DNA of 63,870 bases, filler included, from Chrysochromulina tobinii (Eukaryota), in assembly GCA_001275005.1 (NCBI GenBank). It is 8 parts of 8 records of this genome, joined end to end, with 100 filler letters (N's around TTAATTAATTAA, not from the genome) between each part and the next. Parts side by side here need not be neighbours in the genome. Positions count along the whole stretch, not along the records: positions 35,878 to 56,403 come from JWZX01000933.1; 7 more parts are not named here. One strand, given 5' to 3'. Made by a program: the position numbers and the translations under genes. Positions 4,988 through 61,173 of this stretch are shown here, piece by piece (within the stretch, counting starts at the first letter, position 1; each line of letters opens with the position of its first letter). The notes under the pieces were generated by a model. The model was not told the DNA's origin. It was given only the letters and a program-made list of their open reading frames with translations, and did not search any database.

Positions 4988-5024
<37 letters not shown>

Positions 5025-25900: not shown

Positions 25901-26499
25901 GGCGCGCCGGCAGAAGCTAAGCTCGCGCCGGGCATCATCGGCGGCATCGCGTGAGCCTGCATGATCTGCACAAGCTCCGCGCAGGGCACCTCGCGCGCCG
26001 CCCGCACACGGTGCGAACCCGGCCGAGGAGACGGAGGCACCGGCACAAAGGTGCTCGGGTGCAGGTGCTCGAGCAGCGGCCGCGGCGCCGGCGGCGGCAC
26101 GTTGGCCAGGATGGCTGTGACTGGACGTGGCGGGTGCGCATCGATGAGGGCGGCGGTCGCGATGCGCACCTGGGCGGCGCTCATCATCATCGGGATGAGC
26201 GGCGGTGGCGGGTGCGACCCACGAGCGGCCTGAGAGGAGGCCGTGCGCGGCAACAGCGTGCGCGGCGGTAGCAATGATCCGGCATGCCCTCGTGCAGAGG
26301 CCGGCGATGATTGACTGCTCGGCGATGAGACAGGATGCTGCTGATGCTGGTGCTGCTGCCGGCTGTAAGCTTCTGCGTATTGGCGAGCAGCGCTGGGTCC
26401 AAACGTCGAAGTCAGACTGGTGAATGGTCGGTCGACGTCGTGGCGCTCGCGGCCCCAATCCGCTTTATAGATCATATTCTTGGATCTCAGGAACGCCAT
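22960..26499 (-). CDS. EF-hand + HET/TIR-like + LRR protein
   Basis: Four EF-hands (DSDGSGAIDQFE, DADSSGSLDMDE, DTDGDGSASIKE, DKDGDGTLTEDE). HET-like VVHRWG..YWVSALAMSPW..FSRLWVCFEI. C-terminal LRRs LxxLxLxGCxxLxxL. Confidence 0.85.
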   Translation of the reverse strand: MAFLRSKNMIYKADWGRERHDVDRPFTSLTSTFGPSAARQYAEAYSRQQHQHQQHPVSSPSSQSSPASARGHAGSLLPPRTLLPRTASSQAARGSHPPPPLIPMMMSAAQVRIATAALIDAHPPRPVTAILANVPPPAPRPLLEHLHPSTFVPVPPSPRPGSHRVRAAREVPCAELVQIMQAHAMPPMMPGASLASAGAPRPASQGIRNVMAPNGTRRYTRRALTGRLSPPGLSAEEPLAEELPARSVPYVTVSHEEVWGHFQMEIWRRLTGPAEPPPRPPKKKPVRKKLRKKKAEVEEVAVEDLSWEFRIPRLLQQMAAKNHLKMMDVFKKFDSDGSGAIDQFEFEAALVELGLHDVPRFEARKVFESYDADSSGSLDMDELATMIKAGRGPSQLGTKMQVGAVTGYTKADHKASYTRKGHMQMEGALARLKAIDTDGDGSASIKEVLAFLLAEGYDAAAVDELMKILDKDGDGTLTEDEWKAGVSKLAESFESASGASPLLALTEPIDAPHSDLFVDALHPTWIGPDGKVPYQSSRSAMAQAAKVAPEGCTIQDQTMRGIQLQQLRSLIVHLKRRCNSEGWVTTDEEVNAELGLETGTSTPLEWDRCSMYDVLAYVVQPATRARRCSFVELVAKDAQRPEWYVVHRWGEPLVDTLACLERHAKDRNLDLNTTTYWVSALAMSPWDVSEHLAADPFSSPFFRALEATKGCVVVVDRDRSKQSLDTNAPYKGAKAFSRLWVCFEIAVALQRAVEKGYIFDMYTARSHNITGNLVYPAFGLDEPPLFIVHPKGDGYEKRQAVGMTDPSAPLELPVSTRDYKHYESEEQRDYRQTFFPSNALIAGLSSKLQKAEATIDADRKHILNALVNLYTQSQARVAGAVAAGAWHLKRTASLLDVRSISITMEALSAEPPAEHEGYDVYNGLLQARLAAEALQRAFREGQSTLEKVIKEVRTAPLTVLRISMRDAKNTAQFEEALKCLPETLRILELELPDVLYKVKPKKRDEADASSWDNVKVFPDMTHLKLRQRALSDEETEKLSQLARHLQSPEMVIGRLVGYAHESALFRAEQLETVDLQGWPTLEEIPWNLFEMTSLRTLNVSDCKRLSRIKVQFPLIPSQLESLSLDGCSALTELEEGFSRKLSNLTGLSLRGCTSLGKLPTWVNDIERKGAGVVRPAHLK

Positions 26500-28159: not shown

Positions 28160-31100
28160 GAGAGCTGCCGAGCATCAGGCCCTCGACTATCGACTGAGCG
28201 CCCTCCGCACAGACGTGATTGCTTTGCATGCGCAGTGCGCGGATGGGAAGCCTGCCGGCGCTGATAGCGCGGCCGAGGGCGTTCGCGCCATCGTCACCGA
28301 TGGCATTCTTCTTGAGATGGATGAGGGGTTGAGCAAGAGGAGCTCGGAAAGGAGCATGAGCTCGGCATCTCCGAAGAACTCGTGGCACATCTCGAGCATC
28401 GAGCGCACCTGTGTGGAGGCGCGGGGCGCCGTGGTGAGCACTCGCATGCAGGGCTCGTGGCGCATCTCGAGCAATCAAGAGCGTACCTCATGAACCTTAA
28501 TGGAGTAGTGCTCGGTGGTCGCGACCGTCTTGCGGCTGCCCGATTTGGATTCCTTTGACGAGCTCGTCATCGACGCCCATCCAACCATCATTGGCAAAGA
28601 GTGGCCACCAGAGGCAAACAAGAAGGCAAACAAGAGAGAGCAATCAGAGAGCAATCAGAGAGCAATCAGAGAGCAATCAGAGAGCAACCAGAGAGCAACC
28701 AGAGAGCATCGGTGGCCATCGGTGACACTCACTTTGACGAGCTTGCCAATGCCTTCATCGTAAATATGGTTGTTCGAGACGGAGAGCGAGACCCACTTGG
28801 CCGCCTCGCCTCACAACTGCTTCTCAAGCCGGTCGACGTCGTCAGGTCTAGCTCACGCAATCCGTGCCACTCCTCGCCCCAGCTGCCTGGCGGCTTCCAC
28901 ACCTTGACCATCTTGTCGATGCCGCTCGAGAAGAGCGTTCCTTCGGGCGTGAGGCACAGGTTGGCCACCGTCTCGCGGTGGCCGCCCGATCTCCTCGTCG
29001 TACTGGAGCATCCAGATGGCCCCTTTATGACCGACCAGAGTCCCCCTGCACTGATGTTGGTCCTCGCCCGGACCCACCTGATCAGGGATGCAATCATCGG
29101 TCAGTCGTGCCCTGCCATGGCCGTCTACGGCCATGGGCAGCCCCAACCGTCCACAGCTTGATCTCGCCCGTGCGGCAATCAACAGCAATCAACGACCATC
29201 AACGGCAATCAACGGCACCTTCCAAGGCTTGATCTCGCCCTTGCGGTCGCCCTCTAGAGCATTTCGCCGAGCAGCTTGAGCGAGAGTACGCCCATCTCGT
29301 GCCCCTTGAGCACCGCCTCACAGCGAAGGTCGGAGCGGCGCCACTTGCGGATCGTCTGATCCTGCGAGCCCGAGTACATGTACTTCTCATCGTGTAGCAG
29401 CGTCTCACCCCAATTCGTGTGCGCGTTGAGCGTCGCACCGCACCGCAGCCGTTGCGGCATGTGCTCCACCGTGCATGCATCGGTGGCCGCCGCAAGCAGC
29501 GCCTCGATTGCGTCACTCCCCATTTCATTCCAGCGCATGTCGAGCATGTCAAGCGGCGCCGCTGATGGCCACTGATTACAGCTCGCAATCGCCATGGCGA
29601 GCTTGTGAGCGTCTTTGTTGCCCCAGCAGTTGCCAAAGATGCGCAGGTCCTTGAGCATGCATGCGGGCTTCGTGAGCGCCTCACACAGCGCCTCGACCGC
29701 GACCGAGGTGTACTCACCCCACCCCTTCCAATTCACGCCGCATCTGAGAGGCAGCCCAGAGAGCATCAGTGGTGGCGATCGGGGGCACTCAGGCGCACTC
29801 AGCCCCTGCACTTGTTTGGGCTTGGGGGGCGCACAGTTGGTTTTGGCCGAGCTTGAGGGAGCGCAGTGGGCTGCCTGCGGTCGTAAGCCACTTGCACACG
29901 ACCGCCACAGCAACCATCGAGTACTTGCACATCGCCTTCGGCGGTCAGCCCGCAGATCTGCGGCAAACAGCGACCATCAACAGCCATCAACAACCATCAA
30001 TAGCACTCAGCGGCCCTCAGCGGCACTCAGTGGCCTTAAGTGGGCCTCAGCGGCACTCAGCGCACCTGGTTGTCGCTCAGGTCCAGTAGCGAGGTCGGGC
30101 TGTGCGCCACCATGAGCCCTTCGAGGAGCGCGACAGCGCCGTCGCGTCCAATCTTATTGCCGCGCAGATTGAGCCGTTGGATACACACCCGCCCCGAGGA
30201 GATTGATCTCGCAAGGAGGCTGGCACCTTTCTCGGTGATGGCATTGTACCCGATGGACATGCTCGGGATCATGACGGTCATCTGCTTGAGGGGAGAGACG
30301 GCGGGGCTGGCTACGGGGCTGGGCGTGTACGAGACGTAGCCACTCGAAGCTTTACAGCCAGCGCCGCCATCGCCGCCAGCGCCGCCAGCGCCGCCAGCGA
30401 CGCCAACGCAGCTTCCCTTCGGCACGCCGACCCTGCCGCCGAGTGCGCTGCCCACCACGACCACCTCGCTGCCAGTTTCGTCATCGAGCGCATCAGGCCT
30501 CTGGGCATTCGAGACGACGACCTCGAGGATCAGCTGCAGGTCGAAGTCAGTGAGCTTCTGGCCGTCGATCTCGATGTCACCTCCCGCCATGAGCTGCTAG
30601 ATCGGGAGCGGGTGAGAGGCGAGCTGTACGAATTGGATCGAGTCCGAGGCGACCAGCGCACGCGCGAGCTCGGAGATGCCGCTCTCTTCGAGCGCGTTGC
30701 CCGAGATGTCGAACCGCTCGAGCGCCATGACGGGCACCTGACGAGGAAAGGAATCAGACGTTTCTAAAGGAAGGGGTGATACGCTGCAATCAAGTGACAA
30801 TCAAGTGACAATCAAGGCCAATCAAGGCCAATCAAGGCCAATCAAGGCCAATCAAGGCCAATCAAGGTCCAGAGCCCATCAGAGCCCATCCATGACAATG
30901 AAGGGCCCTTAATCAAGGGCCCATGATTGTGCCAAGAGCTCACCGAGAAGATTTTGGTGAGCTCTACCAGCCCCTCATCCGCAATCTTATTGCCCGACAG
31001 ATCGAGCTCTTTCAAGCGGATGGGCGAGCTCTGGATCTCGACCACCAGCGGCAGCAGGGGCGCGACTTGAGCCCGCAGCTCGCGAGCTGCACAGAGACGA

Positions 31101-31203
31101 GCGACGGTGAATCGCGGAGCACGGCGGAGAGGCCGCGGAGCACGGCGGAGAGGCCGTGCAGCCCCGCGTGTTCCGCCGCGGGCGTAGCCGAAGTGAGCAC
31201 CAT
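28160..31203 (-). CDS. Multi-exon RI-type LRR + WD40 protein, 3'-incomplete, with apparent frameshifts
   Basis: LRRs LKELDLSGNKIADEG, LNLRGNKIGRDGA and KKNAIGDDGA. WD40 units MYSGSQDQTIRKW and LFSSGIDKMVKVW. Repeat-filled introns. Confidence 0.65.
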
Positions 31204-31277
31204 GCGACGTAGTGAGAGGCGCTGCAGCGTCGGGTGTCCGGCGATGCCCGCTCAAAGCTGTTGTAACCACTCCGCGC

Positions 31278-31680
31278 TCACGTACGACTTACCGTCGCCG
31301 ATCTCGAGAGCTGTCGCACGAGTGAGTATCGAGGGCGGTGGGCGGAGAGTGAGGGCGTCGAGATGCGATGCAGCACATCCTGATGCATCAGCACGCAGCG
31401 TGCCGGCTGCGGCTGGACGAGCAGCCCGACGACCGTGTCGGCGTCCCAGAAGAGCGTCTCTGCGTCCCACTCGGGCCACCACTCTTGATCGAGGTACACG
31501 AGCAGCGACACGAGCAGCGGCTTGCCTCGCGTACCATTCTCGTACAGCCCATACGTGCTCAGCCAGTGACTCCCTGCGGGGAAGCTGGCTGGGTCGGCAT
31601 CCACGTGCCATTGGAATGCATCGCCCCAGACTGGTGCGTTCGCGACAAAGGAAGTGGCGTGGTACGAGGCGGACCCAGCA
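31278..31680 (-). CDS. 2OG-Fe(II) oxygenase (prolyl-hydroxylase-like) fragment
   Basis: FQWHVDADP (HxD), VSLLVYLD..W..AETLF, P.PARCVLM.QDVLHR and RPRYSLV. The frame is closed upstream by an in-frame TGA at about 31684. Confidence 0.7.
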
Positions 31681-35777: not shown

Positions 35778-35877
35778 NNNNNNNNNNNNNNNNNNNNNNN
35801 NNNNNNNNNNNNNNNNNNNNNTTAATTAATTAANNNNNNNNNNNNNNNNNNNNNNNNNNNNNNNNNNNNNNNNNNNN

Positions 35878-38800
35878 GGCAGCAGCGGCGCCGGCGCCGG
35901 CGCCAGCGCCAGCGCCGCTGCCGCACCGGCCGCTGCACCGCCCGCTGGAGCCGAGCCTCTCCCACCGACGCCCCGGCAGCTCGCCAAGCTGAGTGAAGAT
36001 CAGTTGGTGCACCTGTGGGGTCTGGTGACGGCTGAGGTGCCCCCCGATGAGCGCCACGTGTACCGCAACACGGCCATCGAGGCACTGTGCGAACTTCTCG
36101 AGGAGCCGACTTCGAAGCTCGCGTATCTCGACCTGAGTGCCACAGCGCTCTGCGGCGTCGATGCGACGGGGAAACCACTGCTCGGGTGCGAGTATACGTC
36201 CGAAGCAGTGGAGCGGCTCTGCTTCGCGTTGCGCTCCGAGCACTGTCGATTGACCACTCTTAAGCTGACCAAGTGCCAGATGCGCACGGCGGAGGCGGCG
36301 GCGCTCGCGCTGGCCGTCAAAGCTTGCTCCGCCCACGGGCCAATGGTGCAGACGCTCGTGCTGGAGGGTTCGTCACTACCCGTGCCGCAGCTGCTCGGCC
36401 TGCGTGAGCTCTCGCAGGGGCTGCACAAGCGCTTCTCGTCCGAGTGCTCCAAATTGCATGGGTCGGAGGTGACGCTCATCGCACAGCTCCTCTCCGAGAA
36501 CACGAGCCTAGAGCTGCTCGATCTCAACTCGAGTGGCCTCAGCGGCGGGCTCTCCGAGATTGCGAGCGCCATCGCCGCTCGCGCGATGCCGCTCACCGCA
36601 CTACACCTCGGCGAGAATGGGCTTTCGGCCGCGCACACGATCGAGCTCGTGCACGCGCTGCGCACAGGCGCGCCACAATTGACGGACCTCGACTTATCGG
36701 GCAACCCGCTCTGCGGTGTCGAAGAGGGCGGCAAGGATGAGTACTCGACCGAAGCGATCGAGACGCTCTGCAGCTGGATCGCCGATGGCGCGGCGCTGCT
36801 CTCGCTCTCGCTCGTCGACGTGGCCCTCTGCGGACTCGCGCGCGATGGCAACGGCTCTTACCAGTCGCGGGGCATTGCGGTGCTCAACGAGACGCTCTCC
36901 TCCGGCCGCGCCGCCCAGAAGCATATCTCGCTCAAGTCGCTCAATATCTCCGGCTGCAAGATTCGCGAAGACGACGCGCACCATCTGGGCAAGGGGCTCT
37001 CGCGCAACCGGACGCTCGAGAAACTCGTGCTCGACAAGACGCCTCTCATGGTGCAGCAGCTCCTGCGTGGCGAGCGGCTCAGCTTGCATTCAGTCGACTT
37101 CAGCGAGGTGGACGCGACACTGATGGCGCAGCTGCTGCAGCAAGATCTGGCGCTCACATGCATCGACCTGGGCGGCGCCAAGCCGTTACCCAAGGAGATC
37201 AAGGTGCTCTCCGACGCGTTTGCACGGCTGCATGGGCGCGCCTCGGTCCGCGAGCTCTCGGTGAGCGGCCGTTGTCTCGGGCTCGAGGCCCTGCACGTGG
37301 CTGCATGCAAGTGCTCACCACGGCGCCCCCACCCTTTCCCCACAGGTGAGCGGCCGTTGTCTCGGGCTCGAGGGTTCGGCCTCGCTCCTCGACGCGCTCA
37401 AGGATTGCCCACTCGAGGTGCTCGACTTGACCGGCAACGAGATCTGCGGCATCAAGGCCACTGGCACCGACCCGTTCAACCCGTTCGTGCTCAAGATGGT
37501 GTGCGCACTCATCATCAAGGAGGGGTGCGCGCTGCGCCGGTTACGCCTCAAGGGCAACCATATGATCGGCAACGACGTGTACACCAGCGAGGCGGTGTTC
37601 CTTTTCTCGGAGGCGCTGCGATCGCCGCGCTGTCGGCTCGAGGAGCTCCAGCTCGGTCTTGTCAACAAGAGCAGCGGCCTGCGCGAGGAGGACGGCATGG
37701 TGCTCGGCACGGCGGTGCAGGCATGCGCGAGCCTCATCAAGCTCTCGGTCACGCGCGCCGAGCTGCCGATGACCGAGCTGCTACACGGCTCAATCTCACT
37801 CGATCTCGAGGGCAAGGGACTCGGGCGCACCGAGATGGGCATCGCCGCACAGATCTTGCGCTCGAACGGCACGCTGCGCACGCTCAAGCTCACCGACAAC
37901 TGCATGGGACCCCACGGCCTACTCGCTCTCGCCGACGCGGTGCGCCACGCCCGCCCCCCACTCGAAGAAGTCTTCATGGGCAATCTGGGCATCTCCTCTT
38001 GCGAGGAGATCTATGTCTTCTTGCGTGCGCTGCGCGAGGGCGGCGCGCCGCTGCGCGTTCTCGACATCCACGGCAACCCGCTGTGCGTCGCCGAGGGCGG
38101 CGCCACCGCCAGCGCGCCGCCGCCGGGCAGCAGCGGCACCCAGCACGGTGGCGCGCCCGACGAGCAGCGCTGCTTGCGAGCCCTTGCCGAGGTATGCGAC
38201 TGGATCACTTCTCCGGGCAATCAGCTGAGCGTGCTCAACCTGCGCGAGGTGATGAAGGAGGAGCTGCCCGCGGAGATCCACCAAGCCGCGCTCACCATGC
38301 TCTGCGCCGCGGTCGGGCATGAGCACTGCGTGCTGCGTGAGCTCAATGTGCACGGCTTTGGCTTCAAGCCCGCATCGGTCACGCTGCTTGCCGAGGCGCT
38401 CCTCCGATGCCCTACGCCGCTCGAGACCCTGGTGCTCGCACGCTGGGCGGTGCCTGTTCGCCGACTCGGGGTCGAGGCTGGACGTCTCACGTTTGGGGGC
38501 GCCAACGGCTGCCAGGAGGATGTGGTGCTTGTCTCACACCTGCTCGGCTCCGACATGCGCCGCGCCTCGCTCCTTTCCCACTCGTCGAGCCCGAACGCGC
38601 CCTCGACGAGCCCTCTTGGCGCCATCCTGCCACTCGTCGGCGCCCCCGCCGCGCCGTCCTTCACAGCGATGGTGCCCAACACAGCGCGCAGGCCCAGAGC
38701 CAATCCGGAGTTGCCCTTCTCGGTGCCCAGCGTCGACGCGGCTGGCAGGGCCGATCGTGCCGCGTTCAAAGGCAGTGGTGGTGACGGCGGCGGTGGCGGC

Positions 38801-41800
38801 GGCGGCGGCAGCAGCAGCGACGATGCGCTCGAGGGCGGCGGTGGCGCGGGCGGCGCCGCGAGCGACGGCATTGTGCGCTGCCTCGACCTCTCTGAGATCG
38901 GAGCCAATGTTGGGAGCGCGGGGCTGTCCGCGATAGCGAGTGTCATCCGCAAGGGGCAGCTGCCGCACCTGTGCAGCGTGATCCTCAAGGACACCTCGTT
39001 GAAGAAGGCGCAGCTCGAGCAGCTGCTGCGGGCGCTGCTCGACGGGGGCTGCGCTGTGGAGGACCTCGAGCTCTGTGGAACTGAGCTCTGCCTCTCGGCG
39101 CCGGGGCGTTTCTGCCTGGATGCTCTCCGGATCGTCTGTGCACTCATCACGCGCGCAGGGAGCACGCTGCGTCGGCTCGGGCTGCGCGGCACGCACCTGT
39201 GCGGCCTGCCACCCGGGAGCGATGTGGGCGACAAGTACAATCTGGAGGGCATCGCCCTCTTGTGTGCGGCGCTGTGCTCGGAACACTGCATGCTCGAGGA
39301 GCTCGACGTCTCCGACAATGGTCTCCGGGCGGAGCGCGAGCCCCAACCGCCCTCGCGCCTGCCCGCTCGCCTGTACGGGCTCACGCGCCAGGACGGGCCG
39401 CAGCTAAGCGCTCTTGTACCTGCGGTGCGCGCGCGAGTGCTGCGCGAGCTGCCGTACCCAGCCATTTTCGCCCGTGCGAGCGCGCGAGGCTTTGAACTGC
39501 CTCCGCTCGAGACGGTGGCGAACCTCGAGGCAAGTGCCTTCCTCGAGCTGTGGGGACAGGCCAACGAGGCCGAGCGACTCGCCGGGAGCCCAGCCAGCGC
39601 CGCGCCCGCCCGCGCGGGGCCGCCAACCTGCGCCGTCCCGGGAGCACCTGGCGCAGGAAACGATGAGGTGGGCCACCTGCAGAGTCACAGCAGCGGCAGC
39701 AGCAGGAGCAGCAGCGTGCTGGCAGAAGGGATCGTGGTGCCGTTGGCCACGCTGGGCTCGGCCGTGGCCGCCGCCGCCTCTGCCGCCGCCGCCGCCGCCG
39801 CAGCCGCGATGAGCCGCGAGCATGCGCCGAGCACGCCATCGCCCCCGATCCCGTCGATGCCCTCGGCGCCCTCGCCCGTTCTGATGAACTTCACCGAGGG
39901 CAGCGGTGTGAATGTGAATGTGAACTTTGCCGAGGGCAGCGGCAGCGTGGGCACGGCGAGCGCACGCGTACGTGTGCCATCAACGGAAATGGGCGCGCAC
40001 ACGGCGCACTATCCCGAGTTCTCAGCCGCCCACACGTCACTCATGGCCAAGCACCTGACACGCGACGCGTATTTATCCATGTGCGAGGTGCGCAGCGGGA
40101 TGGCTGCCTTCACACTCGATCAATCGATCTCGCCCGGCCGGCTGCGCCCGCACGCGGTCATTGGCGCCGTTGCCGCCGACGTCGACTGCTACGACCGTTT
40201 CGTCGCACTTTTCGACAAGATCATCGAGGAGTGGCATTTGCTTCCGGGCTCTCGGCCGGGCAAGCTCGCGCACAACTCGGAGATCGACGCGAACAAACTC
40301 GAGCTCAACGCCGAGCTCAATGCCGAGCTCAACGCCTTCTTGAATGCCGAGCTCAACGCTGCGGGCAGTGCCGCGGGCAGAAGCAGCAGCAGCAGCGTCG
40401 ACGACGGGGAAGGTAGCGAAGGCGGCGGATCGGCGAAGGTTCCAATTGTGACCGCAATTAAGGCTCCAATTGTGACCGTGAGCAGCGGCAGCGCCGAGGC
40501 GAGTGGCGGCGGCGCCGGTCGGGCGGGGTCCCTCCTCGAGGGGGTGCTTGTGCGCGTGGCCGTGAGCCGCAACCTCGCCGAGCATGCATTCACACCGGCC
40601 ATGTCGAGTGAAGACTTTGCGGAGGTCGAGAGGGTGCTCCTTATCGCACTGCGTGCTCTGCCTCAGTGTGAAGGCGGCGCGGGCACGTACACGCCCTTCA
40701 GCAGCCTCGACGAGGCCGCGATGGCGCAGCTGCATGCTGAGGGTCTGCTCGTCGAGCCGGTGGACCCGATGGTCGCCGCGAGCCGAGACGCGGAGAGGCA
40801 TCGCGGCCTATTCCGTACTCCACGCGGCGAACTCGCCGCGTGGATCAACGGCCCCGATCACCTTCAGCTCCTAGCCGTGCAACGAGTGGGTGTGGGCGTG
40901 GACGGCGCAGGTGCCGCCGCCGCCACCGCAGCCGCCGCCTCCCAGTCCCTCGTGCGGACCGTGTTTGAGCTGGTGCACAGCGCACTCGCCTCTGTGGAGA
41001 AGACGATTCGCGAGTCGAACAAGACGTTCGCGCTGCATCGGCGGCTCGGGTACGTGGGCTCGTGCCCGTCCGTGCTCGGTACAGCGCAGCAGGTGGCCAT
41101 CCGACTGCCGTTGCCGCGGCTCGCACAGCTCCCGCCAGGCTCCCTCGAGGAGGTCGCGAGCGAGTTCTCATTGCGCGCGTCGCGCGTCGTGCCGGGCACA
41201 TTCCCGCCCAACGTGGGCCTGCCGCGGGGCGACGCCGACGGCGGCGAGGGGGGCGCCGGGCGCGAGAACTCGGTCGCGAAGCTTCGGGGAAGGTTCCGAG
41301 CACCATCGAGACGGATGCAGTTCGATGGTCGCTCCGATCTCCTCCAATCTGAGCCGATCTCCTCCAATCTGCGGATGCAGCTCGATGGTCGCTCCGGCCG
41401 GGAAGAGCCGTTGGCGCCGCTCTCCGACACGTCGGCGACCAGCACCGCCACCAGCGCTGCTGCCGCCGCCAGCGCTACTGTCGCCGCCAGCGCCGCTGTC
41501 GCCACCAGCGCCGCCGTCGCCGCCAGCGCCGCTCCCACCGCCGCGCCTGCAGCCGGCCCCGAGTTGTGGGAGTTGAGCAACCGCCCATGCATCGGGCGGA
41601 CGGAGGTGCAGCTCGCTCAGCTGGTCTTCGACAGCGCCGCGCTGCTGATGGCCGTGGATCGCCGAATCGGCGCGGGGGAGACGCTGCACGCGGCGATGAC
41701 GCCGCCGCCGCCACCCGAATCCGCCTCGATGCAGCTCGCGCAAGCAGTGCACCGCGGGCGGCCGCACGCGAGGCTGCGCCTGCTCACGCTCTCATCGACG

Positions 41801-44800
41801 CCGCTGCCCGTGCTCGACTGGGCGGGGCGCGCGACGCGACTCTCGCTTGCGGGGCTGCGCGTGTACGACCGTGACGCGGTGCTGCTCTCTGAGCTGCTCG
41901 CACTCAACACGGTGCTCGGCTCGCTGATGACCTCTGATTGCCTCCCTCATCAGGTGCTCGGCTCGCTGATGACCTCTGATCGCCTCCCTCATCAGGTGCT
42001 CGGCTCGCTCGACCTCTCGCAGTGTCGCATGACCGAGGCGGGCACGCTCGCAATCGCTCGCGCGCTGAGCACCTCGATGCCACGTGGCCTGACCGAGTTA
42101 CGCCTGCCGGACAACCGGCTACGCGTCTCGGGCGCGCACGCACTGCTCGACGCGCTCGACGCGGCGCGTTGCCGCCTCGAGTGCCTCGACCTCTCCGCCA
42201 ACGAGCTGTGCGGCGGCACGGTAGCCGAGGATCATTCGTTTGGGCTGCTCAAGGGGTCGGCCGCTCGCCTCTCCGAGCACGGGCAGCTCTGCCGGCTCGA
42301 GTCTGATGGACTCTGCTCCGCTGGGCCGCGCATGGAGCCCTTCTCGGGATGCTACCGCATTGAGTTCGAAGTGCTCCAGGCGACCGACGGCGATGGCGCG
42401 TACGTTGGCGTCATCAAGCCTGACGCGAACAAGTCGTCGTACCCGGGCTCGGATGACAAGGGCGTCGGCTGGCGTGCCAAAGGTGACGTGCGCCACCTAC
42501 ACAACGCCGTAGACATGGGGGGCGCCATCGCGGGCTGGGGGCAAGGTGACAGGGTGGGGCTCATGCTTGACACACACACGTGCGAGCTCACGTTCCTCAA
42601 GAATGGCAAAGCCTTCGAGCAGCGGTACACGGTCTCAATGGACGGTGGCATGTACTTTGCCGTCGGGCGCTACTACGGCTCCTACGTCGTGCGCTGCCTC
42701 TACGTGCACCAGCAGGGCGGCAACGAGGACATGGACTACTCGGCCCTCGAGCGGCTGTGTACGTTCGTGCACGCGCCGGGCAATCGGATGCGCGAGCTGC
42801 GCGTGGCGAGCAACCAGCTCATCGGCGTCTCCAAGTTCCATGGCGGTAGGCGCAACGAGCGAGGGCTGCATCGGCTCATTGCCGCTTTTGGGAGCGAGGC
42901 ATGCGCGCTCACGCATCTCGATGTGAGCGGCAACGGCTTCTCAGCCGAGGACGCGGCCGCTATGCTCGCGGTCGCCATGCGACCGTCCGCGTCCATCCTG
43001 CTGCTCAAGGTGCACCTGTGGCTTGTACCTGTCAAGCAGCTCGCCGCCGATACGGCGCTCGACCTGCGCGGTCAGGGGATGTCGGACGAGGACGCGGCGC
43101 TCCTCGCGCGGCTGCTCGAGAGCCGCTCGCAGCTGACGCGGCTCGACCTGCACGACAACCGTCTGGGCACCAGCGGAGTGGCCGCCCTCGCCAGGGCGAT
43201 CGCCGCCTCTGGAACGCCCTTGGAGTCCCTCGTCCTCTCCGCGAATCGGCTGGGCGCGAGCGCCGCCGCGGCCCTCGTCGACGGACTCGCGGCCATCCAG
43301 CCGCCCACGCTGACGGCGCTCGACTTGTCGGACAACCCACTGACCGAGGGCGCCGCCGCATACGACACACGCGCGATCGGCGCCCTCGAAGCGCTGCTGG
43401 TCGCGCCGGGATGTGTGCTCACGACCCTGGGCCTTTCTGCCACGCAGCTGTGCGGGCGCGATGGCGACACGAGCTACGTGGGCGAGGGCATCGCGCTGCT
43501 CGCGTCCGCGCTGCGTCGCTCGCGTGCGCCGCTCGCCTCGCTCCGTCTCGCAGGCAACCTGATGCGCGACGCCGAGGCCACGCTGCTCTGCACAGCTCTC
43601 TCGGAGCGAGAGGGCGCGGGCTGCGCGCGCCTGTCGCTCGACCTCTCGACCAACTCGCTCTCGTCCGCGCGACTCGCCGAGGTTGGCGGGCTGTGCACTC
43701 TCGTGGCCGCCTTCCAGAAGCCGCTGTGTGAACGCGTCTTCGTGGGCGTGGACAAGTGCGTGTACAGCGCCGTCGCGAGCGAGCATGCCATCTACATGGC
43801 GCACGGCTCGGGACCCATCATTAAGGTGTCGCTCACTGAATGGAAGGAGCTCGGCCGCTTCGAAGGGCATGCCGACGACACCAACTGCCTCGCGCTGCAC
43901 CGTGACCACCTTCTGTCTGGCTCGGATGACTACACGGTCAAGCTATGGCGCACGACCACTTCCGCTGCGGGCGAGGGCTGCTGTGTCGTCACGCTGACCG
44001 GCCACGAGGCACGCGTCTGGTGCGTGCTCGCCACGGACGAGTTCATCTACTCGTGCTCGGCTGACAAGACCATCCTCGTCTGGTCGATGGCCGATGCGCA
44101 GCGCGGCATCGCGACCCTCAAGGGACGGCTCACCGCGCACACGGACGTGGTGTACGCGGTGCGCCTCGCCTTTGGCTCTCTCTTCTCGTCGAGCGCCGAC
44201 AAGACCATCAAGCGATACGCGCTCGACACGCATCGGGTCACGATCTCATGGGAGGCGCACGCGCACTCGATTACATGCCTCGCGGCGGCTGAGCGGCTGC
44301 AGTTGCTCTGCTCGGGCGCCGAGGACGGGCGCATCTGCCTCTGGCATGTAGGCGCGACGACGGCCACTTGCGCCGGCACGCTGAGCGTACGCCCCCACGG
44401 ATCCCGCGCCGCCTCGTCGAACTTGGCTATCTACGCTCTCGCAGTGAGCCCGACGGGCACCGTGCTCTTCTCGGGCGGTGCAGACTACCGCGTGCACATG
44501 TTTGACTTGACGGAGCGCACACTGCTCCACACGCTGACCGGCCACGCTAGTACCGTGCGAGCGCTCTGCTTCACCGCCGCGGGCGATAAGCTGTGCAGCT
44601 CCGGCGGCGATTTCAACCTCCTCGTGTGGGCCCTACACGAAGATCAGAGAGCCGAGGAGGAGCTGCGCGTCAGGGAGGAGGCTGCCACCGCCGTCGCCGT
44701 GGCCGCTGCCGGCGGAGGCGTCGGAGGCGCAGGCCTCCACATATCTCGAGCGGGAGGCGCAGGCGGAGCGGGAGCGGATGGAGTCAGCGCGTCGAGCAAC

Positions 44801-44857
44801 AGTCGAGCAGCCGAGGAGGAGGAGGAGGAGGAGGAGGAGGAGGAGAAGCCGAAATAG
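35878..44857 (+). CDS. Giant LRR - phosphagen-kinase-like - SPRY - LRR - WD40 protein (5'-incomplete)
   Basis: ORF 36004-37260 splices in phase (intron 37261-37345) to ORF 37346-44857. Many RI-type LRRs. ATP:guanido phosphotransferase-like region at about 40000-41670, SPRY at about 42340-42700, WD40 repeats at about 43760-44640. Confidence 0.85.
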
Positions 44858-45330
44858 AAGCCGAAATAGAAGCCGACGCGAAGGAAGAGCCGGAGAAGCG
44901 CCAGGGTACGACTCACGTGCCCCGCGTCATTGAGTATGTATCGCCCACTACGAAGGATCGATCGTGGCTCAAGGACTTGAGCGGGTATTCTGGGTCTGTC
45001 CACACTCCACAGATGGCGGATCGAATTTCGTGTTGCGTCCACCTGTAGCGGGGAAATTGAGCGTTTCCATTTGACCGTTTGATGACTTCTACGGGGTTAG
45101 AATGGAAGTCGGATTCGAGAGTGTCATCCGCGTACCGCGAAGCAACCCACCGGCACTTTAATTCCCCGCACGGGGCCATCACGCACATCCGTCGCGCACA
45201 CCTCTGCCCCGGCGGTCGGCCCACAGTGACACGCGGTCCAGAGCTCTGGCAGTCTCTCTCGGCGGCTCACAAGCTCACAACTCCCCGGACCGGACGAATG
45301 GCCGGACGCGGACCCGTGCGCGTTCCCGGC

Positions 45331-46005
45331 TCACAGAATCGAGGTGACGCCCGGCTCCCACGGCGTGCACCGCGGGATCCAGGCACCCACGCCGGCCCAG
45401 TAGGCCCCATACGGCCCACCAAAGCGCCGCTTCAGATCCGTCTCCTCCCAGCCCATCACCATTATCATCGAGACCCAATAGATGCCGCCGAACACGAGGA
45501 TTCCGATTTCGCCGCTGAGGACGCCCTCACCAACGATGAGCAGGACTATGGAATATGTGACTGGATTACGAATGTATGCGTAGGGACCACTAGTCACGAG
45601 CGCCTTCGGTGGGTCGTGTGATGAGATCGTTCCGTCCGCCTCAGAAAGCTTGGCCGCGGAGGCCGTGAGAAGCCAGAAGCCCAGTAGCATGAAAAGCACA
45701 CCAGCGCCAAGCACGGAGAGGCCAGTGATGGAGACTATGCTATGCCCAAAGAGTGGTGACTGCGGCAGCCAGTGCGAGTGGTGATGGATCGCGTGCGGTA
45801 GAAACGCCGGGAAGAAAAGAGCAAAGTTCACGGGCCCGGTGAGCGAGAAAGCCGCCTTGATTTGCCGCAGATAGTGCACAGGCTTATGGGTGACCTTGGC
45901 CACCGGGGGTTCCAAAACTCGAGAGCTGGCCACAACTCTCGAGCTGGCCAACATGTTTTTGCTGGTGCTGACCTTTGCTGCGAGGGGCTCCTTCTTGGGT
46001 GCCAT
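45331..46005 (-). CDS. Isoprenylcysteine carboxyl methyltransferase / PEMT-family membrane protein
   Basis: LVTSGPYAYIRNP and EE.DLKRRFG..Y.AY...V..WIP, plus transmembrane helices. Confidence 0.85.
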   Translation of the reverse strand: MAPKKEPLAAKVSTSKNMLASSRVVASSRVLEPPVAKVTHKPVHYLRQIKAAFSLTGPVNFALFFPAFLPHAIHHHSHWLPQSPLFGHSIVSITGLSVLGAGVLFMLLGFWLLTASAAKLSEADGTISSHDPPKALVTSGPYAYIRNPVTYSIVLLIVGEGVLSGEIGILVFGGIYWVSMIMVMGWEETDLKRRFGGPYGAYWAGVGAWIPRCTPWEPGVTSIL

Positions 46006-46480
46006 CGAGATTGATGAGCGCGGTGTGAGGGTGCGCCGCCGCGTAGGGTCAGCAACCCCAGAGAGCGATCGATGTGAGCGTAGTTTCAACTTGGTCAAAC
46101 TTCTCGAAGGAGAAGCGAGTTCGAGATAGTTTGAGGTGAGAGTCGAGGATGACGCGCAGAGATGCGTATCTCGCTACCTAAAAACGCCGATGGTCGCTCA
46201 ATTTTCATCAAAAGTTCCGTTCTATGGTCACTGTGCTCACTGGGTCTTCTTCAGTATCTCAGAACTGGAGATCAACTCAGATCTCACATGGTCGGGAGTT
46301 TTCTCGGAAATATCGCCTCAGACCCAACCCGACTTTAAGGTCAATGCACAATGGTTGCGGGTTCTTGGGGTTTATCCAATTGACCCCGGTCAGAGACATT
46401 AACAAGACATCGGATTTCTACTCTCTGTTCAAATTGCAATGTAGTGGCAGACTCGCGCCCGCTGCAACCCACACCTCGAG

Positions 46481-51337: not shown

Positions 51338-51494
51338 GCGGCGGGGCCGCCAAGAGGGATTTCCTTTTTTGTCATAGTTCTTTCCAAGGGTACCAACCTG
51401 CACTGACACCTGGCAGATGTCGCGTGAGACGCGTGAAATTTGATGTTGACGTTTGAAGTGATTGCATTCGAAAACGCATTCTGCGATCGAGAAA

Positions 51495-53568
51495 TGCGAG
51501 CGACGTCGGCCGAGAAGCAGGAGGAGGCGCCCACGGCAAAGAAGGCCAAAGACGAGGAGCCACGTGCGAGCGCGAGACGGAGAGGTGGCCACGTTGTCGC
51601 GCGATGCAGCCCGACTCATGGGCACCTTGAGGGATCTGATGGACCTCGCCACCTCCGAGGATGGCATCTATCCCATGCCCACGATCATGGCCTCGACGCT
51701 TCAGATGGTGTGCAAGCTGAATGCCCCAGACTACACGTGGCCGAGCTCTGACGAGCCTTTGCTCTACCAGCTCATCCAGCTCATCGAGGACACCCTCTTT
51801 CTCGACGCCCCCATCGCGCTCAAGCACATCCAGCGCGTGATCGCCTCCCGACTCAACAGCAAGCGCGCTCCCGAACTAGGCGCGCTGCTCAGCGCGGGTG
51901 GTGACTTTGGCAGCGCGGAGGAGCACGCGTCGCATCACGCTGCGCCCGTCGACGGGCAGCGTGCTGACGAGCTTCGTAAGCGTTACAGTCGGATGCGCGT
52001 TCAGGAGCTGCGCTGGAAGCTGCGCAAGCTTGGCCTCACGACCGACGGCACCAAGCCCGTGCTCATCGGGCGCCTCATCGAGATGGCGAATGCAGCGGCG
52101 TCAATCGCCGAGCCGGCTTTTGTACCGGAAGACGTTCTGGAGGCGCCGCAGCAGCCGGCCAGCTCCACGTTACCGCCCGAGCCGCTGCAGCAGCCCTCGT
52201 TCTCGGCGGACGCCATGGAGGCTGCTCTGGGCCTGGTGGACGTGGCCACGTTGGTGGAGCTCAAGGGCGTGAGTCGATCTTGGCGGGCGCTGGCGCAAGG
52301 TGTCCTCTGCTCGCGCCTGTGCCGCCGCGACGGGCAGCCAGTACCCACACGTCTGGATGAGATCACCGACCTTGACGTGGAGCAGCTCATCGAGGCCGGC
52401 CGCCCCGGGGACGCGTCCGTAGCGGGGCGGATGCTGCCTGGGCTTGCGCGCCTCCATGGCTACGGTCATGTGGTGGACGTGGCCGCCGTTCGGGCCGCGG
52501 ATCTGCAATGCGGGATGGGCGACTGGCGCCGCCCTTCCTTGCTACATGGTGCTGCTAAGGATGCTCTCAACAGCTGCATCTCAGGCGAGGGAGAGCCACC
52601 GTTGAGGCTGACGATCGCAGCCGTTGCCTGTGCGGGCTCAGGAGTCATTTGCGGCATTCCTGTGCAGCAACTGCGCGAGGACAGCGTCACGGAGCTCAAC
52701 TTGTCCGATAGGGGGCTCCATGTGCCTGCGGCCATGCTTGTCGCCTATCTCATTCCTGCTACGTCGGTGCTCAAGAGCTGCAACTTGCTCAAGAACAGGT
52801 TCGACGTTGAGTTGGCCAAGAATCTCGCCAAGATGGGTGCGGAGATGGGCATCATGCTCTCGGGCATGACGCGCAACCAGACGGCGGCCGACTTCTGGGG
52901 CCAGAGCCTACAACCCGCCGACGCCATCCTGATCGCGTCTGACCTGCAGTTCATGGCGGTGGTGACCACCCTGCACCTGGGCGTGAACCAGATCCGTGCA
53001 GAGGGAGCCATCGCGATTGCGGAGGCGCTGAAGGTCAACGCAGTCTTGACCCGCTTGGACTTGGCCTCCGACAACATCGGGGTCGAGGGTGCCAAGGCGA
53101 TCGCGGAGGCGCTGAAGGTCAACGCCGTTGTGACCACCCTCGAACTCGAGAACAACAAGATCGGGGATGAGGGTGCCATCGCAATCGCGGAGGCGCTGAA
53201 GGTCAACGCGGCCGTGACCGAGCTATTGCTCGACGTCAACGAGATCGGTGACGAGGGAGCCATCGCGATCGCGGAGGCGCTGAAGGTCAACGCGGTGGTG
53301 ACCACCCTCTCCCTCAGCGGCAACAAGATCGGCGATGAGGGTGCCGATTGCGATCGCGGAGGCGCTGAAGGTCAACGCGGTCCTTACCGTTCTCTGGCTT
53401 TCGGGCAACGAGATCGGGGACGAGGGCGCTAAGGCAATCGCGGAGGCGCTGAAGGTCAACGCGGTCCTGACCAAATTGGACATCCGGTACAACAGCATGG
53501 GAGATGCAGGTGGAAAAGCGGTGCGAGATGCGGTGAAGGGCCGGAGTGGATTTGTGTTGGAGCTGTAG
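51495..53568 (+). CDS. Skp1-like + SAP + F-box-like + NLRC3-type LRR protein with two apparent frameshifts
   Basis: Skp1-like RARDGE..LSRDAARLMGTLRDLM..PMPTI.ASTL. SAP motif MRVQELRWKLRKLGLTTDGTKPVLIGRL. F-box-like VATLVELKGVSRSWRALA. 28-aa repeats IGDEGA.AIAEALKVNAV. Frame changes at about 51560 and 53346. Confidence 0.75.
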
Positions 53569-53840: not shown

Positions 53841-54749
53841 TCACGGGCAGCTCCTCGAGAAGACGGACGCTCGCAGCACCTGCTCCTTTGTCGGTTGCAC
53901 CCCTGTGTACAGCTCGAACTGCTTCGCTGCCTGCAGCGCAATCACCTCGGCTCCCGTCACCAGCGCCTTGCCGAACGCGCGCGCCCGGCGGACCAGAGGT
54001 GTCTCCGACGGGAAGGCGACCACGTCGAAGATGACACGCGCACGCTCGATCGCATCATCCCGGAAGGCGATCTCGCTCTCCTCGGGCGAGCCGGCCATTC
54101 CGATTGGAGTCACATTAACCAGGATCTCAGCAGCGATGCCATCCACCGACGCCGTCCAGACATAGCCGAGCTCGGCCGCCAGCGCCGGGCCGCTGGTCGT
54201 GTTGCGAGCAATGACAGTGCCCTTCATGAATCCGGCGTCTCGAAAGGCCGCCCCCACCGCCTTGGCCATTCCGCCGCTACCTCGAATCGCCACCGATTCA
54301 GACGAGCGCAGACCGTGGCTCGCGATCAAGGCGACTATGGCGCCGTAGTCCGTGTTGTACGCCCTGAGGGTGCCGCCCGTATTGACTATCGTGTTCACCG
54401 ATTGGATGGCCAACGCCGATGCGTCCATCTCGTCGACCAACGCAATGACCGCCTCTTTGAAGGGCATTGATACCGAGCAACCTCGCAAGCCAAGTGCTCG
54501 TACTCCTCCGATGGCTGCTTTGATGTCCGAGGTCGTGCACGCCTTGTAAATGAAGTCAATGCCGAGCTCTTCGTACAGATAATTGTGGAAGCGCGTGCCG
54601 ATGTTGCTGGGACGCTTGGCGAGCGAGATGCAAATCTGCGTGTCTTTGTTGAGCAGCGGCCGTTTCGGCCGCTTGCGTCGGCTCATGTATGCGATGCCCA
54701 GCCCGACGCCAAGCATGGCCAGAAGAGTGATCCTTGGAGGAACGGCCAT
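53841..54749 (-). CDS. Shikimate dehydrogenase-like protein (SdhL/HI0607 subclass) with an N-terminal hydrophobic anchor
   Basis: NKDTQICISLAKRPSNIGTRFHNYLY, SVSMPFKE, SVNTIVN, YNTDY, GSGGMAKAV, NVTPIGM and ALQA..QF..YTG. Confidence 0.92.
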   Translation of the reverse strand: MAVPPRITLLAMLGVGLGIAYMSRRKRPKRPLLNKDTQICISLAKRPSNIGTRFHNYLYEELGIDFIYKACTTSDIKAAIGGVRALGLRGCSVSMPFKEAVIALVDEMDASALAIQSVNTIVNTGGTLRAYNTDYGAIVALIASHGLRSSESVAIRGSGGMAKAVGAAFRDAGFMKGTVIARNTTSGPALAAELGYVWTASVDGIAAEILVNVTPIGMAGSPEESEIAFRDDAIERARVIFDVVAFPSETPLVRRARAFGKALVTGAEVIALQAAKQFELYTGVQPTKEQVLRASVFSRSCP

Positions 54750-54919
54750 CTTCGCGCCGTGAGGGGTTTCCGCGGGCTGTGAAGGATTCCTATTGCGTTT
54801 ATCAGCTTTTAATCGACGTGATGTTTTGCTCATGAATTCATATCTCCTGGCAGATCTCGCTCCTCCGTGGCCCCGGGGGTGGATGGTGAGGCCCAACATA
54901 GCACTGCGGTGGGCGTGCT

Positions 54920-59505: not shown

Positions 59506-60819
59506 TCAGCACCACTCGCGCGGGTTCTTGAAGGCGTCCATGATGTCCGCCTCGGGCGATCCCTCCTGCACCTTATGGCAGTACTCCCAGCGCGCCGTCT
59601 CAGGCAGAGACATGAGGATCGACTCGATGCGCCCACCCGTCTTGAGGCCGAAGACGGTGCCACGGTCGTACACGAGGTTGAACTCGACGTACCGGCCGCG
59701 GCGCATCTGCTGCCACTCCTTCTGCTGCTCCGTGAACGCGTCATCCTTGTGCTTGGCCACCAGGGGCAGGTATGCCGGCACGACCGAGTCGAGGCACTCC
59801 TTGGAGAAGGCGAAGAGGGTCTCGGGCTCCTTCTCGTTGAGGTCGTCGAAGAAGATGCCGCCGAGGCCGCGCGTCTCGCCGCGGTGCTTGATCACAAAGT
59901 ACTCGTCCGCCCACTTTTTGAAGCGCGCATAATACGTGGGATCATGCTTGTCGCACACCTTCTTGTAGGTGCCGTGGAAGTGCTTCACGTCCTCTTCGAA
60001 AAGGTACGAGGGCGTCAGGTCGGTGCCACCGCCAAACCACCACACGCCGCCCTCGGTCTCGAAGTAGCGGTAGTTGAAGTGCATCGTCGGCGCATTCGGG
60101 TTCCGCGGGTGCATCACCGAGCTCAGGCCGCATGCGAAAAAGGGCACGCGCTCGCCCGGCGCGTAGCCCTTGGCGCGATCGGCGCCGCGCGAGGTGGCCG
60201 ACTGAAGGGCCTCCTGCGGCATCGAGCCGTAGACGACCGAGAGCGAGCAGCCGGCCTTCTCGAAGACGTTGCCGCCCGCAAGCACGCGCGAGATGCCGCC
60301 GCCGCCGCCCTCGCGCGTCCAGACATCCTCTTGGAACTTGCAGCCGTCGAGCTCCTCCACCGCCTTGCAGATGGCGTTCTGCGCCCTCCTGCAGTTGGCC
60401 TCGAAGCGGCGGCGCATGTCCATGTTCGCGCCGCTCAGGTCATCGTCGCGCACCAGCGTCTCGGGCGCCTCGCTCACATACTTATGCGAGTCCCAGGTGA
60501 TCGGTGCGGGCATCGATGGCGCCGGCTTCACTGGCGCCTCGGCCATGTGGATCGCGCCAGGACGCGCATTGGCAGCTGCAGCGTTGGCTCCTGCGAGGGT
60601 GCGCGAAGACGACCACCAGCGCTCAGCGGACGGTGCGACAGGACGCTCCTGCGCACGCAGATTATCCTTCGACGCTGATTGCGCACCGCTAGACAGCCCG
60701 ACGCCCAGCACGTAGGCGGCCGACTGCAGGTTGCACGCTGCGGTGCAGAAGAGGGAGCACAGCGAGCTGTCAGGCGTTGATGCCGATGCGTTGCTCTGGT
60801 GGGCGATGGCTCGGCGCAC
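59506..60819 (-). CDS. hemF: Oxygen-dependent coproporphyrinogen III oxidase with an N-terminal targeting extension
   Basis: [76 protein letters not shown] and [10 protein letters not shown]. True start uncertain. Confidence 0.97.
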
Positions 60820-61173
60820 CGAGGAGGAAGACTGCAGTCATAATTGCACCTCGAGGTGACTGATGAGGTTTCGAAGCTCGTCTGTGCGGAATTTTCAATT
60901 GGAGCAACGTTCACGATCACGTTAGATTGCCATCTCGGCAAGACGCACGACCACCGGTCCCGTGGAGACACATCGTGGAGGGCGCAGAGTGCGGTGCACC
61001 CACCCACACAAACAAACAAGGCGCCACACACACACACATGGACACCGGATCGGACAAACACACGAAGAAGAGGCGGGGGTCCCGGGGTATCGACGGCCTC
61101 TTGGGAAGTGACGGGGGTGCTCTAAAGAGGGGGGGTAATCAAGTTGCCCCGCGCGCGTAGCGCGCGGGTTTTC

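What the first reader, a model, noticed from the sequence alone, without database searches (positions are those of the whole stretch)
40000..41670. Degenerate phosphagen kinase embedded in a ~2,900-aa LRR-SPRY-WD40 protein
Seen: YPEFSAAHTSLMAKHLT..FTLDQSI..G..A.D.DCY..F..LFD.IIEEWH, RV.VSRNL..F.P, RGLF..AWINGPDHLQL, LGYVGSCPSVLGT and WELSNR..IGRTEVQL. Established: these are arginine/creatine kinase motifs, in which NEEDH and CP(T/S)NLGT are catalytic or substrate-binding. Here NEEDH has become NGPDH, losing both glutamates. The domain sits between RI-type LRR arrays and is followed by SPRY and a WD40 propeller. Inference: a pseudo-enzyme acting as a nucleotide or phosphagen sensor, or as an integrated decoy in an immune-like scaffold. 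I do not recognise this architecture.
Basis: partly seen in the sequence, partly recalled or inferred. Interest (0 to 1): 0.75.

Follow-up and report, generated by a model that had tools for sequence, protein, structure and literature searches.

The report
Algal NLR carrying dead phosphagen kinase
A haptophyte alga expresses a giant protein of at least 4,850 amino acids built like an NLR immune receptor, and it carries a phosphagen-kinase domain that has lost most catalytic residues yet stays conserved, likely as a binding or bait surface rather than an enzyme.

Summary
The window cuts it at an assembly joint. Matching contigs (L001/2/4) and spliced RNA contigs extend it 5' through another LRR block, a WD40 propeller and a NACHT NTPase with intact Walker A/B motifs. 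The order is NACHT-LRR-WD40-LRR-pseudo-phosphagen kinase (PK)-LRR-SPRY-LRR-WD40, at least 4,850 aa. The PK fold is confirmed by sequence and by model, but only 2 of 8 core active-site residues remain, including just one of five phosphate-binding arginines. That makes catalysis and ATP sensing unlikely. A paralog (type B, L008) has the same architecture with different lesions: it keeps NEEDH and loses the cysteine and R126. Of the top 150 library hits, 37 are fragments of this family. The PK domain is conserved far above its linkers, and the codon-tested C-terminal half is under purifying selection (dN/dS 0.01-0.14). Best reading: an NLR-type switch whose sensor arm displays a dead PK as a binding module. 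An immune decoy role is plausible but untested, and a non-immune scaffold role is the main rival. My literature searches found no description of this architecture.

The parts
35778..35877 (.). Assembly joint (N44-linker-N44). The true upstream DNA is L001:1-5877 and encodes, 5' to 3': an unidentified beta-rich region, NACHT (about L001 1190-1655), helical/winged-helix region, LRR block, intron (L001 3863-3999), WD40 propeller, LRR block, helical insert. The transcript runs at least 1,260-1,316 nt further 5' than L001:1.
35878..37260 (+). Exon part: RI-type LRR block
   Evidence: RNA contigs
37261..37345 (+). 85-nt GT-AG intron; 29 nt fit on either side of the joint
   Evidence: spliced out in RNA contigs of 3 of 4 runs laid
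37346..39334 (+). RI-type LRR blocks with a low-complexity insert
   Evidence: 41-54% identity to paralog B
39335..40006 (+). Conserved helical motif, then an Ala/Ser/Pro-rich linker leading to the PK domain
   Evidence: motif kept in P0053, P0018, P0012; no Pfam family
40007..41680 (+). Pseudo-phosphagen kinase: complete N- and C-lobes with three low-complexity inserts; keeps R124, R129, W221, D226, C271, N327; lacks R126, E224, E225, R229, N274, R280, H284, R309, R330 and the 309-320 lid loop
41717..42214 (+). LRR block resuming after the PK domain
41912..41995 (+). Probable 84-nt in-frame GT-AG intron
   Evidence: 28 aa absent in P0004; RNA contigs stop at 41925 and restart at 41995, but no joint was listed and one contig keeps 41928-41994
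42218..42709 (+). SPRY domain, the most conserved part tested (dN/dS 0.01)
   Evidence: Pfam PF00622 above cut-off
42731..43650 (+). RI-type LRR block
43727..44629 (+). C-terminal WD40 propeller; stop codon at 44855-44857
   Evidence: RNA depth falls after about 44800
28160..31320 (-). Broken partial copy (LRR-WD40 part) of paralog B, with stops, frameshifts and deletions, on the neighbouring contig
   Evidence: 93.8% nucleotide identity to L008 over 2,343 aligned bases

Best explanation
This is one spliced, expressed gene for a NACHT-LRR-WD40-LRR-phosphagen kinase-LRR-SPRY-LRR-WD40 protein of at least 4,850 aa; the kinase domain lacks six of eight core active-site residues and is likely a non-catalytic binding or bait surface on the sensor arm of a predicted NLR-type switch. 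Shown: architecture, expression and splicing, PK homology, loss of catalytic residues, conservation of the dead domain, intact NACHT motifs, and a second paralog with the same layout. Inferred from how STAND/NLR proteins work (established knowledge): the NACHT rests ADP-bound and is held shut by the repeat arm. When a partner binds, or modifies, a displayed module (pseudo-PK, SPRY, WD40), the arm would release the NACHT to exchange for ATP and oligomerise, activating an N-terminal output that I could not identify. Read by eye from the translation, the helical motif plus PK, and the SPRY, each interrupt a single LRR repeat, so they would hang as loop inserts on a continuous solenoid. The slow evolution suggests the ligand is a conserved host protein or surface (guard- or decoy-type surveillance) rather than a fast-changing pathogen molecule.
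For: NACHT PF05729 36.1 bits against cut-off 26.7; ESM Atlas top hits for the region are NACHT clusters, 0.94-0.96; Walker A, Walker B and sensor-1 motifs are intact in the translation. The intron joining the NACHT-LRR exon to the WD40 exon is spliced in 4 of 4 runs laid. The model has no stop over 4,850 aa. Paralog B in L008 aligns from NACHT to the last WD40; P0012/P0013 carry WD40-LRR-PK-SPRY-LRR in one chain. Core residues kept: window 2 of 8, P0004 3 of 7, type B 4-5, against 7-8 of 8 in ten reference PKs. PK identity is 68-77% among three close B members against 31-35% in the adjacent linker (50-59% against 33% for the more distant P0018), and 60-62% between A members against 22% in the insert. 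dN/dS is 0.135 for the PK C-terminal 39 codons. NACHT, LRR and TIR genes are up-regulated in virus-resistant Gephyrocapsa huxleyi (PMC12489294, passages).
Against: No functional data. The N-terminal output domain is unseen (5' end not held) and the part upstream of NACHT matched no family. Pfam NOD2_WH and NLRC4_HD2 did not hit, and the NACHT region had no PDB sequence match. SPRY, LRR and WD40 are under purifying selection (dN/dS 0.01-0.14), unlike fish NLR-B30.2. Only two paralogs and one broken copy were found, and the gene is transcribed in all 4 culture runs laid, which fits a housekeeping scaffold equally well. Degenerate PK domains are common elsewhere: only 14 of 142 domains in tandem multi-PK proteins keep all eight residues (gaps counted as losses), so a dead PK is not itself a sign of immunity. 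No RNA contig spans the repeat gaps at L001 5772-5930 or window 39753-39813.
Confidence: 0.55

Rival explanations
1. A non-immune, constitutive scaffold or signalling protein, for example of the flagellum, haptonema or cytoskeleton. The dead PK serves as a structural or docking module, as dead nucleotide-transfer domains do in axonemal proteins (recalled).
For: Purifying selection and few copies; transcription in all 4 runs laid; degenerate PKs fused to PH, C2 and Ras domains in other proteins point to a general signalling module; NB-WD40 and NB-TPR proteins have roles from signal transduction to apoptosis (PMC7145615, passages).
Against: NACHT followed directly by LRR is the NLR layout, and NACHT-LRR-SPRY recurs in fish immune receptors (PMC4852459, abstract). 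No localisation evidence was obtained.
Confidence: 0.28
2. The PK pocket is a metabolite sensor that binds ATP/ADP, arginine or phosphoarginine without turning over, and couples energy status to the NACHT switch.
For: The fold is complete. Type B keeps R124, NEEDH, R229, N274 and R280. The N-lobe is well conserved within each type.
Against: The window copy keeps one of five phosphate-binding arginines, and its lid loop is replaced by a 127-aa low-complexity insert. Type B has an acidic residue at R126 in 4 of 4 rows and lacks W221, H185, N327 and R330. A and B lose different residues, so no shared binding set is preserved.
Confidence: 0.1
3. The domain is still a weak or re-specified guanidino kinase.
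For: C271 and R124 remain in type A, and NEEDH remains in type B. Single mutants of E225 or C271 keep low activity (recalled, not from a call).
Against: E225, E314 and C271 polarise the guanidinium, and R126, R229, R309 and R330 hold the phosphoryl group (PMC11075012, passages). Neither paralog has a full set. R126 is replaced in 4 of 4 type-A rows covering it and R229 is Q in 4 of 4.
Confidence: 0.05
4. The fusion is an assembly or gene-model artefact of neighbouring genes.
For: No single RNA contig spans the gene. The RNA runs may be one campaign, and L001/2/4 may be one strain.
Against: One ORF runs across LRR-PK-SPRY-WD40. Fifteen database proteins link PK to flanking sequence, including members at 42-67% identity (P0005/12/13 and P0006/17 are near-copies). 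Paralog B repeats the whole order.
Confidence: 0.02

Closest known systems
Fish NLR-B30.2 proteins (FISNA-NACHT-LRR-B30.2/SPRY; PMC4852459, abstract seen)
   Same: NACHT, RI-type LRRs and a SPRY domain in one chain; fish NACHT-LRR proteins were among the LRR-driven hits.
   Different: Here the SPRY is internal and under purifying selection. There are two WD40 propellers and a pseudo-PK, no FISNA hit in the part held, and two paralogs found rather than about 400. Probably convergent (inference).
Plant NLRs with integrated domains / integrated decoys (PMC7145615, passages; kinase-decoy examples recalled)
   Same: An NLR core with a foreign host-protein domain that has lost its catalytic residues.
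   Different: NACHT rather than NB-ARC; a unicellular alga; the insert is a metabolic phosphagen kinase, conserved across divergent lineages; no effector known; no head-to-head partner seen.
Arginine/creatine/taurocyamine kinases (ATP:guanido phosphotransferases)
   Same: Both Pfam domains and the full two-lobe fold.
   Different: 2 of 8 core residues, lid loop replaced, embedded in a repeat protein. The donor lineage is not resolved.
Tandem multi-domain degenerate PK proteins with PH, C2 or Ras domains (unnamed hits such as P0044, P0049, P0063, P0112)
   Same: PK folds with eroded active sites in multidomain proteins; they group near A and B in trees, possibly through long branches.
   Different: No LRR, SPRY, WD40 or NACHT in the PK-bearing proteins scanned.
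NACHT-WD40 STAND proteins (fungal HET-E type, NWD1/2, TEP1; recalled) and choanoflagellate NACHT-LRR proteins (PMC6040629, passages)
   Same: A STAND switch with C-terminal repeat arms; NACHT-LRR proteins are reported outside animals.
   Different: LRR and WD40 arms are combined and interleaved with inserted globular domains.

Membership tests
Phosphagen kinase (ATP:guanido phosphotransferase) | N-terminal helical lobe and C-terminal alpha/beta lobe | tested here: met
   Pfam PF02807 and PF00217 above cut-off; model and Foldseek E 4e-24
Phosphagen kinase (ATP:guanido phosphotransferase) | Core active-site residues R124, R126, E225, R229, C271, R280, R309, E314 | tested here: not met
   Window keeps 2 of 8; ten references keep 7-8 of 8. 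Residue list from PMC11282998 and PMC11075012; numbering transferred by motif from P0027, with the motif-to-number mapping recalled
Phosphagen kinase (ATP:guanido phosphotransferase) | Phosphoryl transfer to a guanidino substrate | not testable with these tools
   needs an enzyme assay
NLR (NACHT-LRR STAND protein) | NACHT NTPase with Walker A, Walker B and sensor-1 | tested here: met
   PF05729 E 7e-9, above cut-off; motifs at model residues 403, 480, 512; Atlas hits
NLR (NACHT-LRR STAND protein) | Winged-helix and helical domains after the NTPase | tested here: inconclusive
   a winged-helix-type motif is at residue 697 (recognised from recall), but no Pfam NOD2_WH or HD2 hit
NLR (NACHT-LRR STAND protein) | LRRs C-terminal to the NACHT in the same chain | tested here: met
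   same ORF, L001:2-3892
NLR (NACHT-LRR STAND protein) | N-terminal signalling domain (TIR, death fold, HeLo, CC or similar) | tested here: inconclusive
   at least 1,260 nt of 5' transcript not held; the 385 aa held before NACHT match no family above cut-off; single-sequence model pLDDT 42, best Z 5.5
NLR (NACHT-LRR STAND protein) | Ligand-triggered nucleotide exchange and oligomerisation | not testable with these tools
   needs biochemistry
NLR with integrated decoy | Non-canonical domain homologous to a host protein, often catalytically dead | tested here: met
NLR with integrated decoy | Domain is hit by a pathogen effector that also targets the free host protein | not testable with these tools
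   no effector known
NLR with integrated decoy | Genomically linked helper/sensor pair | tested here: inconclusive
   no second copy within 8.6 kb downstream of A (L001) or 7 kb downstream of B (L008); upstream DNA not held
Fish NLR-B30.2 | C-terminal B30.2/SPRY under positive selection in a large expanded family | tested here: not met
   SPRY is internal, dN/dS 0.01 in the one pair tested; two paralogs found

The most novel reading that the evidence does not exclude
Haptophytes have an ancient pair of giant NLR immune receptors that use dead phosphagen kinases as integrated decoys. They bait virus or bacterial factors that attack the cell's phosphagen energy buffer, and the two paralogs present complementary halves of the active-site surface. 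This would be an integrated-decoy receptor in a unicellular alga, and one that guards energy metabolism.
Probability: 0.22. Interest if true: 0.92.

Novelty: new variant of a known kind. Interest (0 to 1): 0.74.

Why it matters
How bloom-forming haptophytes sense viruses and bacteria inside the cell is open. Transcript data implicate NACHT, LRR and TIR genes, but the TIR genes reported there carry no NBS or LRR domain (PMC12489294, passages). This gives a concrete, conserved, expressed NACHT-LRR receptor candidate with built-in modules whose partners can be pulled down. It also shows the phosphagen-kinase fold reused as a pseudoenzyme inside a signalling protein, and points to a wider, apparently undescribed class of degenerate PK fusions. 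Short-contig gene calls split the protein into fragments, which may be why it has been missed (inference).

Tried and rejected
No whole genome was held for the window and the loci's records were not held, so the true 5' end stays unseen. The pre-NACHT region gave no family, a poor all-beta single-sequence model (pLDDT 42) and only background fold matches (best Z 5.5). The Atlas did not answer for the PK domain or the pre-NACHT region. The PDB sequence search with the NACHT region found nothing. A single origin of the A and B kinase domains scored 100/99 in a 16-row tree, was unresolved in a 204-row FastTree, and in a 52-row tree two unrelated long-branch domains fell inside the group (9 rows, 96/80). 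I ran no AU test, so I name no donor; single insertion rests on the shared position in the chain. My first idea that P0024/P0026-type enzymes are the donor was not supported by these trees. dN/dS for L008 against L010 is uninformative (99% identical), and the A-against-B value of 0.5 is unreliable at 37% identity. The scan for viral PKs did not run, so whether algal viruses carry or target PKs is open. No complex prediction was obtained, so whether A and B bind each other is open. The loop-insertion reading was not checked by computation. The earlier-findings index returned nothing. Flagellar-PK and degenerate-PK literature searches gave nothing usable (listings only).

Full report
Observation. 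The interval 40007-41680 lies in one 2,530-codon frame, 37265-44857. Both phosphagen-kinase (PK) Pfam domains pass their cut-offs, with SPRY, WD40 and LRR_6 in the same ORF. A PDB sequence search gave 43 matches, all arginine, creatine, taurocyamine, lombricine or glycocyamine kinases, best E 8e-34. An AlphaFold model on a 16-row alignment has a confident two-lobe core and disordered inserts at residues 133-174 and 399-514. Foldseek matches it to PKs (E 3.9e-24, TM 0.80 on the target). The alignment contained active PKs, so the model is not independent of them.

The gene is cut by the window. The window is a series of contigs joined by N-linker-N blocks (7 joints), one at 35778-35877. L001, L002 and L004 match the window from 35878 onward (L001 is identical over 35878-44860) and add 5.9 kb upstream. 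That DNA encodes a WD40-LRR frame and, before it, a 5'-open frame with a NACHT domain (36.1 bits, cut-off 26.7), LRRs and the first WD40 blades. The ESM Atlas places the region among NACHT clusters. Walker A, Walker B and sensor-1 are intact by inspection.

Expression. Of 18 runs listed, 14 are RNA and hold 84-92% of the sampled words of 39000-43000; they may be one campaign. I laid 4 of the 14. The intron L001 3863-3999, which joins the NACHT-LRR exon to the WD40 exon, is spliced in 4 of 4 runs, and 37261-37345 in 3 of 4. One contig covers 39814-41532 colinearly, so the inserts within that stretch are in the RNA; another runs from the PK C-terminal helix into the next LRR (41558-41925). Contigs of three runs continue 1,260-1,316 nt beyond L001:1. 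No contig spans the whole gene: breaks include the repeats at L001 5772-5930 and window 39753-39813. A third intron at 41912-41995 is probable, not shown. The spliced model is 4,850 aa without a stop and is still 5'-open, so up to about 5,300 aa is likely.

A family with two paralogs. Protein searches found P0004 (67% identical over 1,087 columns; PK C-lobe to WD40), and P0005 and P0006 (42% over the region searched). Cluster members P0012/P0013 hold WD40-LRR-PK-SPRY-LRR in about 3,030 aa. L008 encodes a second paralog (type B) that aligns from NACHT to the last WD40. L001 and L008 come from the same assembly by contig name, so they are probably the same organism (inference). Of the best 150 hits in 1.84 billion representatives, 37 are family fragments, 27 nearer A and 10 nearer B by best BLAST score, and 7 of the 37 link PK to flanking sequence. 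These hits carry no taxon labels. A gene on another contig of the window clusters at 90% with a Chrysochromulina parva protein, so the host is likely a Chrysochromulina. That the wider family is haptophyte is inferred, not shown.

The kinase is dead, in two different ways. Core residues were taken from PMC11282998 and PMC11075012 (passages) and transferred by motif. The window keeps R124 and C271 only, 2 of 8; ten reference PKs keep 7-8. It also lacks E224, H185, N274, H284 and R330, and the lid loop is replaced by a 127-aa insert. Other type-A rows read NASDH, NAADH and NGEDH; R229 is Q in 4 of 4 rows covering it and R126 is A or S in 4 of 4. Type B keeps E225, D226, R229, N274 and R280, but has C271S and an acidic residue at R126 in 4 of 4 rows and lacks W221, N327 and R330; R309 is ambiguous between alignments. 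With one of five phosphate-binding arginines left, the window copy is unlikely to bind ATP in the usual way (inference).

The dead domain is kept. PK identity is 68-77% among three close B members against 31-35% in the adjoining linker, and 60-62% between the window and P0004 against 22% in the insert. That is somewhat below the flanking LRR, SPRY and WD40 (66-86%). Between A and B the PK C-lobe is the most diverged folded part (30%), while the first WD40 is 83% identical. For L001 against L003, dN/dS is 0.135 (PK last 39 codons), 0.14 and 0.09 (LRRs), 0.01 (SPRY; dS near saturation) and 0.05 (WD40). This is one pair, and the PK core could not be tested at codon level.

Mechanism. I commit to an NLR-type switch (0.55). 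The NACHT would rest closed under its repeat arm and open when a partner engages a displayed module. Read by eye, the LRR strand at 39302-39334 is separated from its helix, which resumes at 41717, by the helical motif, linker and PK; the strand at 42185-42214 is separated from its helix at 42731 by the SPRY. This suggests inserts on a continuous solenoid; it was not tested by computation. Conservation argues for a conserved ligand, which fits guard or decoy surveillance but also a non-immune scaffold (0.28). Metabolite sensing (0.10), residual catalysis (0.05) and artefact (0.02) rank lower.

Results against novelty of the dead PK itself. In 97 other hit proteins I extracted 185 PK domains. 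Only 14 of the 142 in tandem multi-PK proteins keep all eight residues, against 18 of 43 in proteins with one extracted domain (gaps counted as losses). Some carry PH, C2 or Ras domains (26 proteins scanned). Degenerate PKs are therefore a recurring module, and the new element is the placement inside a NACHT-LRR protein. Trees do not fix the donor.

Literature. 'guanido phosphotransferase' with NACHT: 0 papers. NACHT, WD40, SPRY and arginine kinase: 0. 'phosphagen kinase' with haptophyte: 0. NACHT, haptophyte and NLR: 1, unrelated by its listing. One search surfaced PMC12489294, whose passages report NACHT, LRR and TIR genes up-regulated in virus-resistant G. huxleyi. One search gave PMC6040629 (passages: NACHT-LRR proteins in choanoflagellates) and PMC7145615 (passages). 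For PMC4852459 I saw the abstract and outline. The library lacks most subscription papers and I read no supplements, so annotation tables of haptophyte genomes could list this gene.

Verdict. A real, expressed, conserved gene and a new variant of a known kind: an NLR-architecture protein with an integrated pseudo-phosphagen kinase. Interest 0.74.

Noticed in passing
window 28160-31320 (-): Broken, partly deleted copy of the LRR-WD40 part of paralog B (93.8% nucleotide identity to L008), on the contig placed just before the gene; similarity to the gene's own WD40 region may explain why the contigs are neighbours.
   Followed up: partly
P0044, P0063, P0049, P0112, P0150, P0157 and other hits: A large set of proteins with two to four tandem, mostly degenerate PK domains, and PK proteins fused to PH, C2, Ras, ankyrin or Dpy-30 domains; looks like an undescribed pseudoenzyme class.
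   Followed up: partly
window 37261-37345 and 41912-41995; L001 3863-3999: The introns begin with a copy of nearby exon sequence (29 nt fit either side of the first), and their 3' parts recur at many other loci (loose ends): possibly a spreading intron family.
   Followed up: no
L001 4000-4900 against L008 3383-4389: The first WD40 propeller is 85-92% identical between paralogs A and B, while the PK is 30-42%: gene conversion or a shared, strongly constrained partner.
   Followed up: no
L001 2-300 and 674-1186: Two non-low-complexity stretches before the NACHT match no family above cut-off; the second is predicted all-beta at low confidence.
   Followed up: partly
L001 about 5360-5990 and window 39335-39580: Two similar two-part helical motifs, each following an LRR strand, conserved in both paralogs; no Pfam family above cut-off.
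   Followed up: partly
window 51462-53432 (+), 3659-7663 (+), 22960-26499 (-): Other multidomain genes, read by eye: a SAP-like plus RI-type LRR protein, a filamin-repeat-like protein, and an EF-hand protein with C-terminal LRRs (EF-hand name).
   Followed up: no
window 59506-60837 (-), 53841-54917 (-), 45331-46173 (-): Look like coproporphyrinogen III oxidase, shikimate dehydrogenase and a membrane methyltransferase (recalled, not tested).
   Followed up: no
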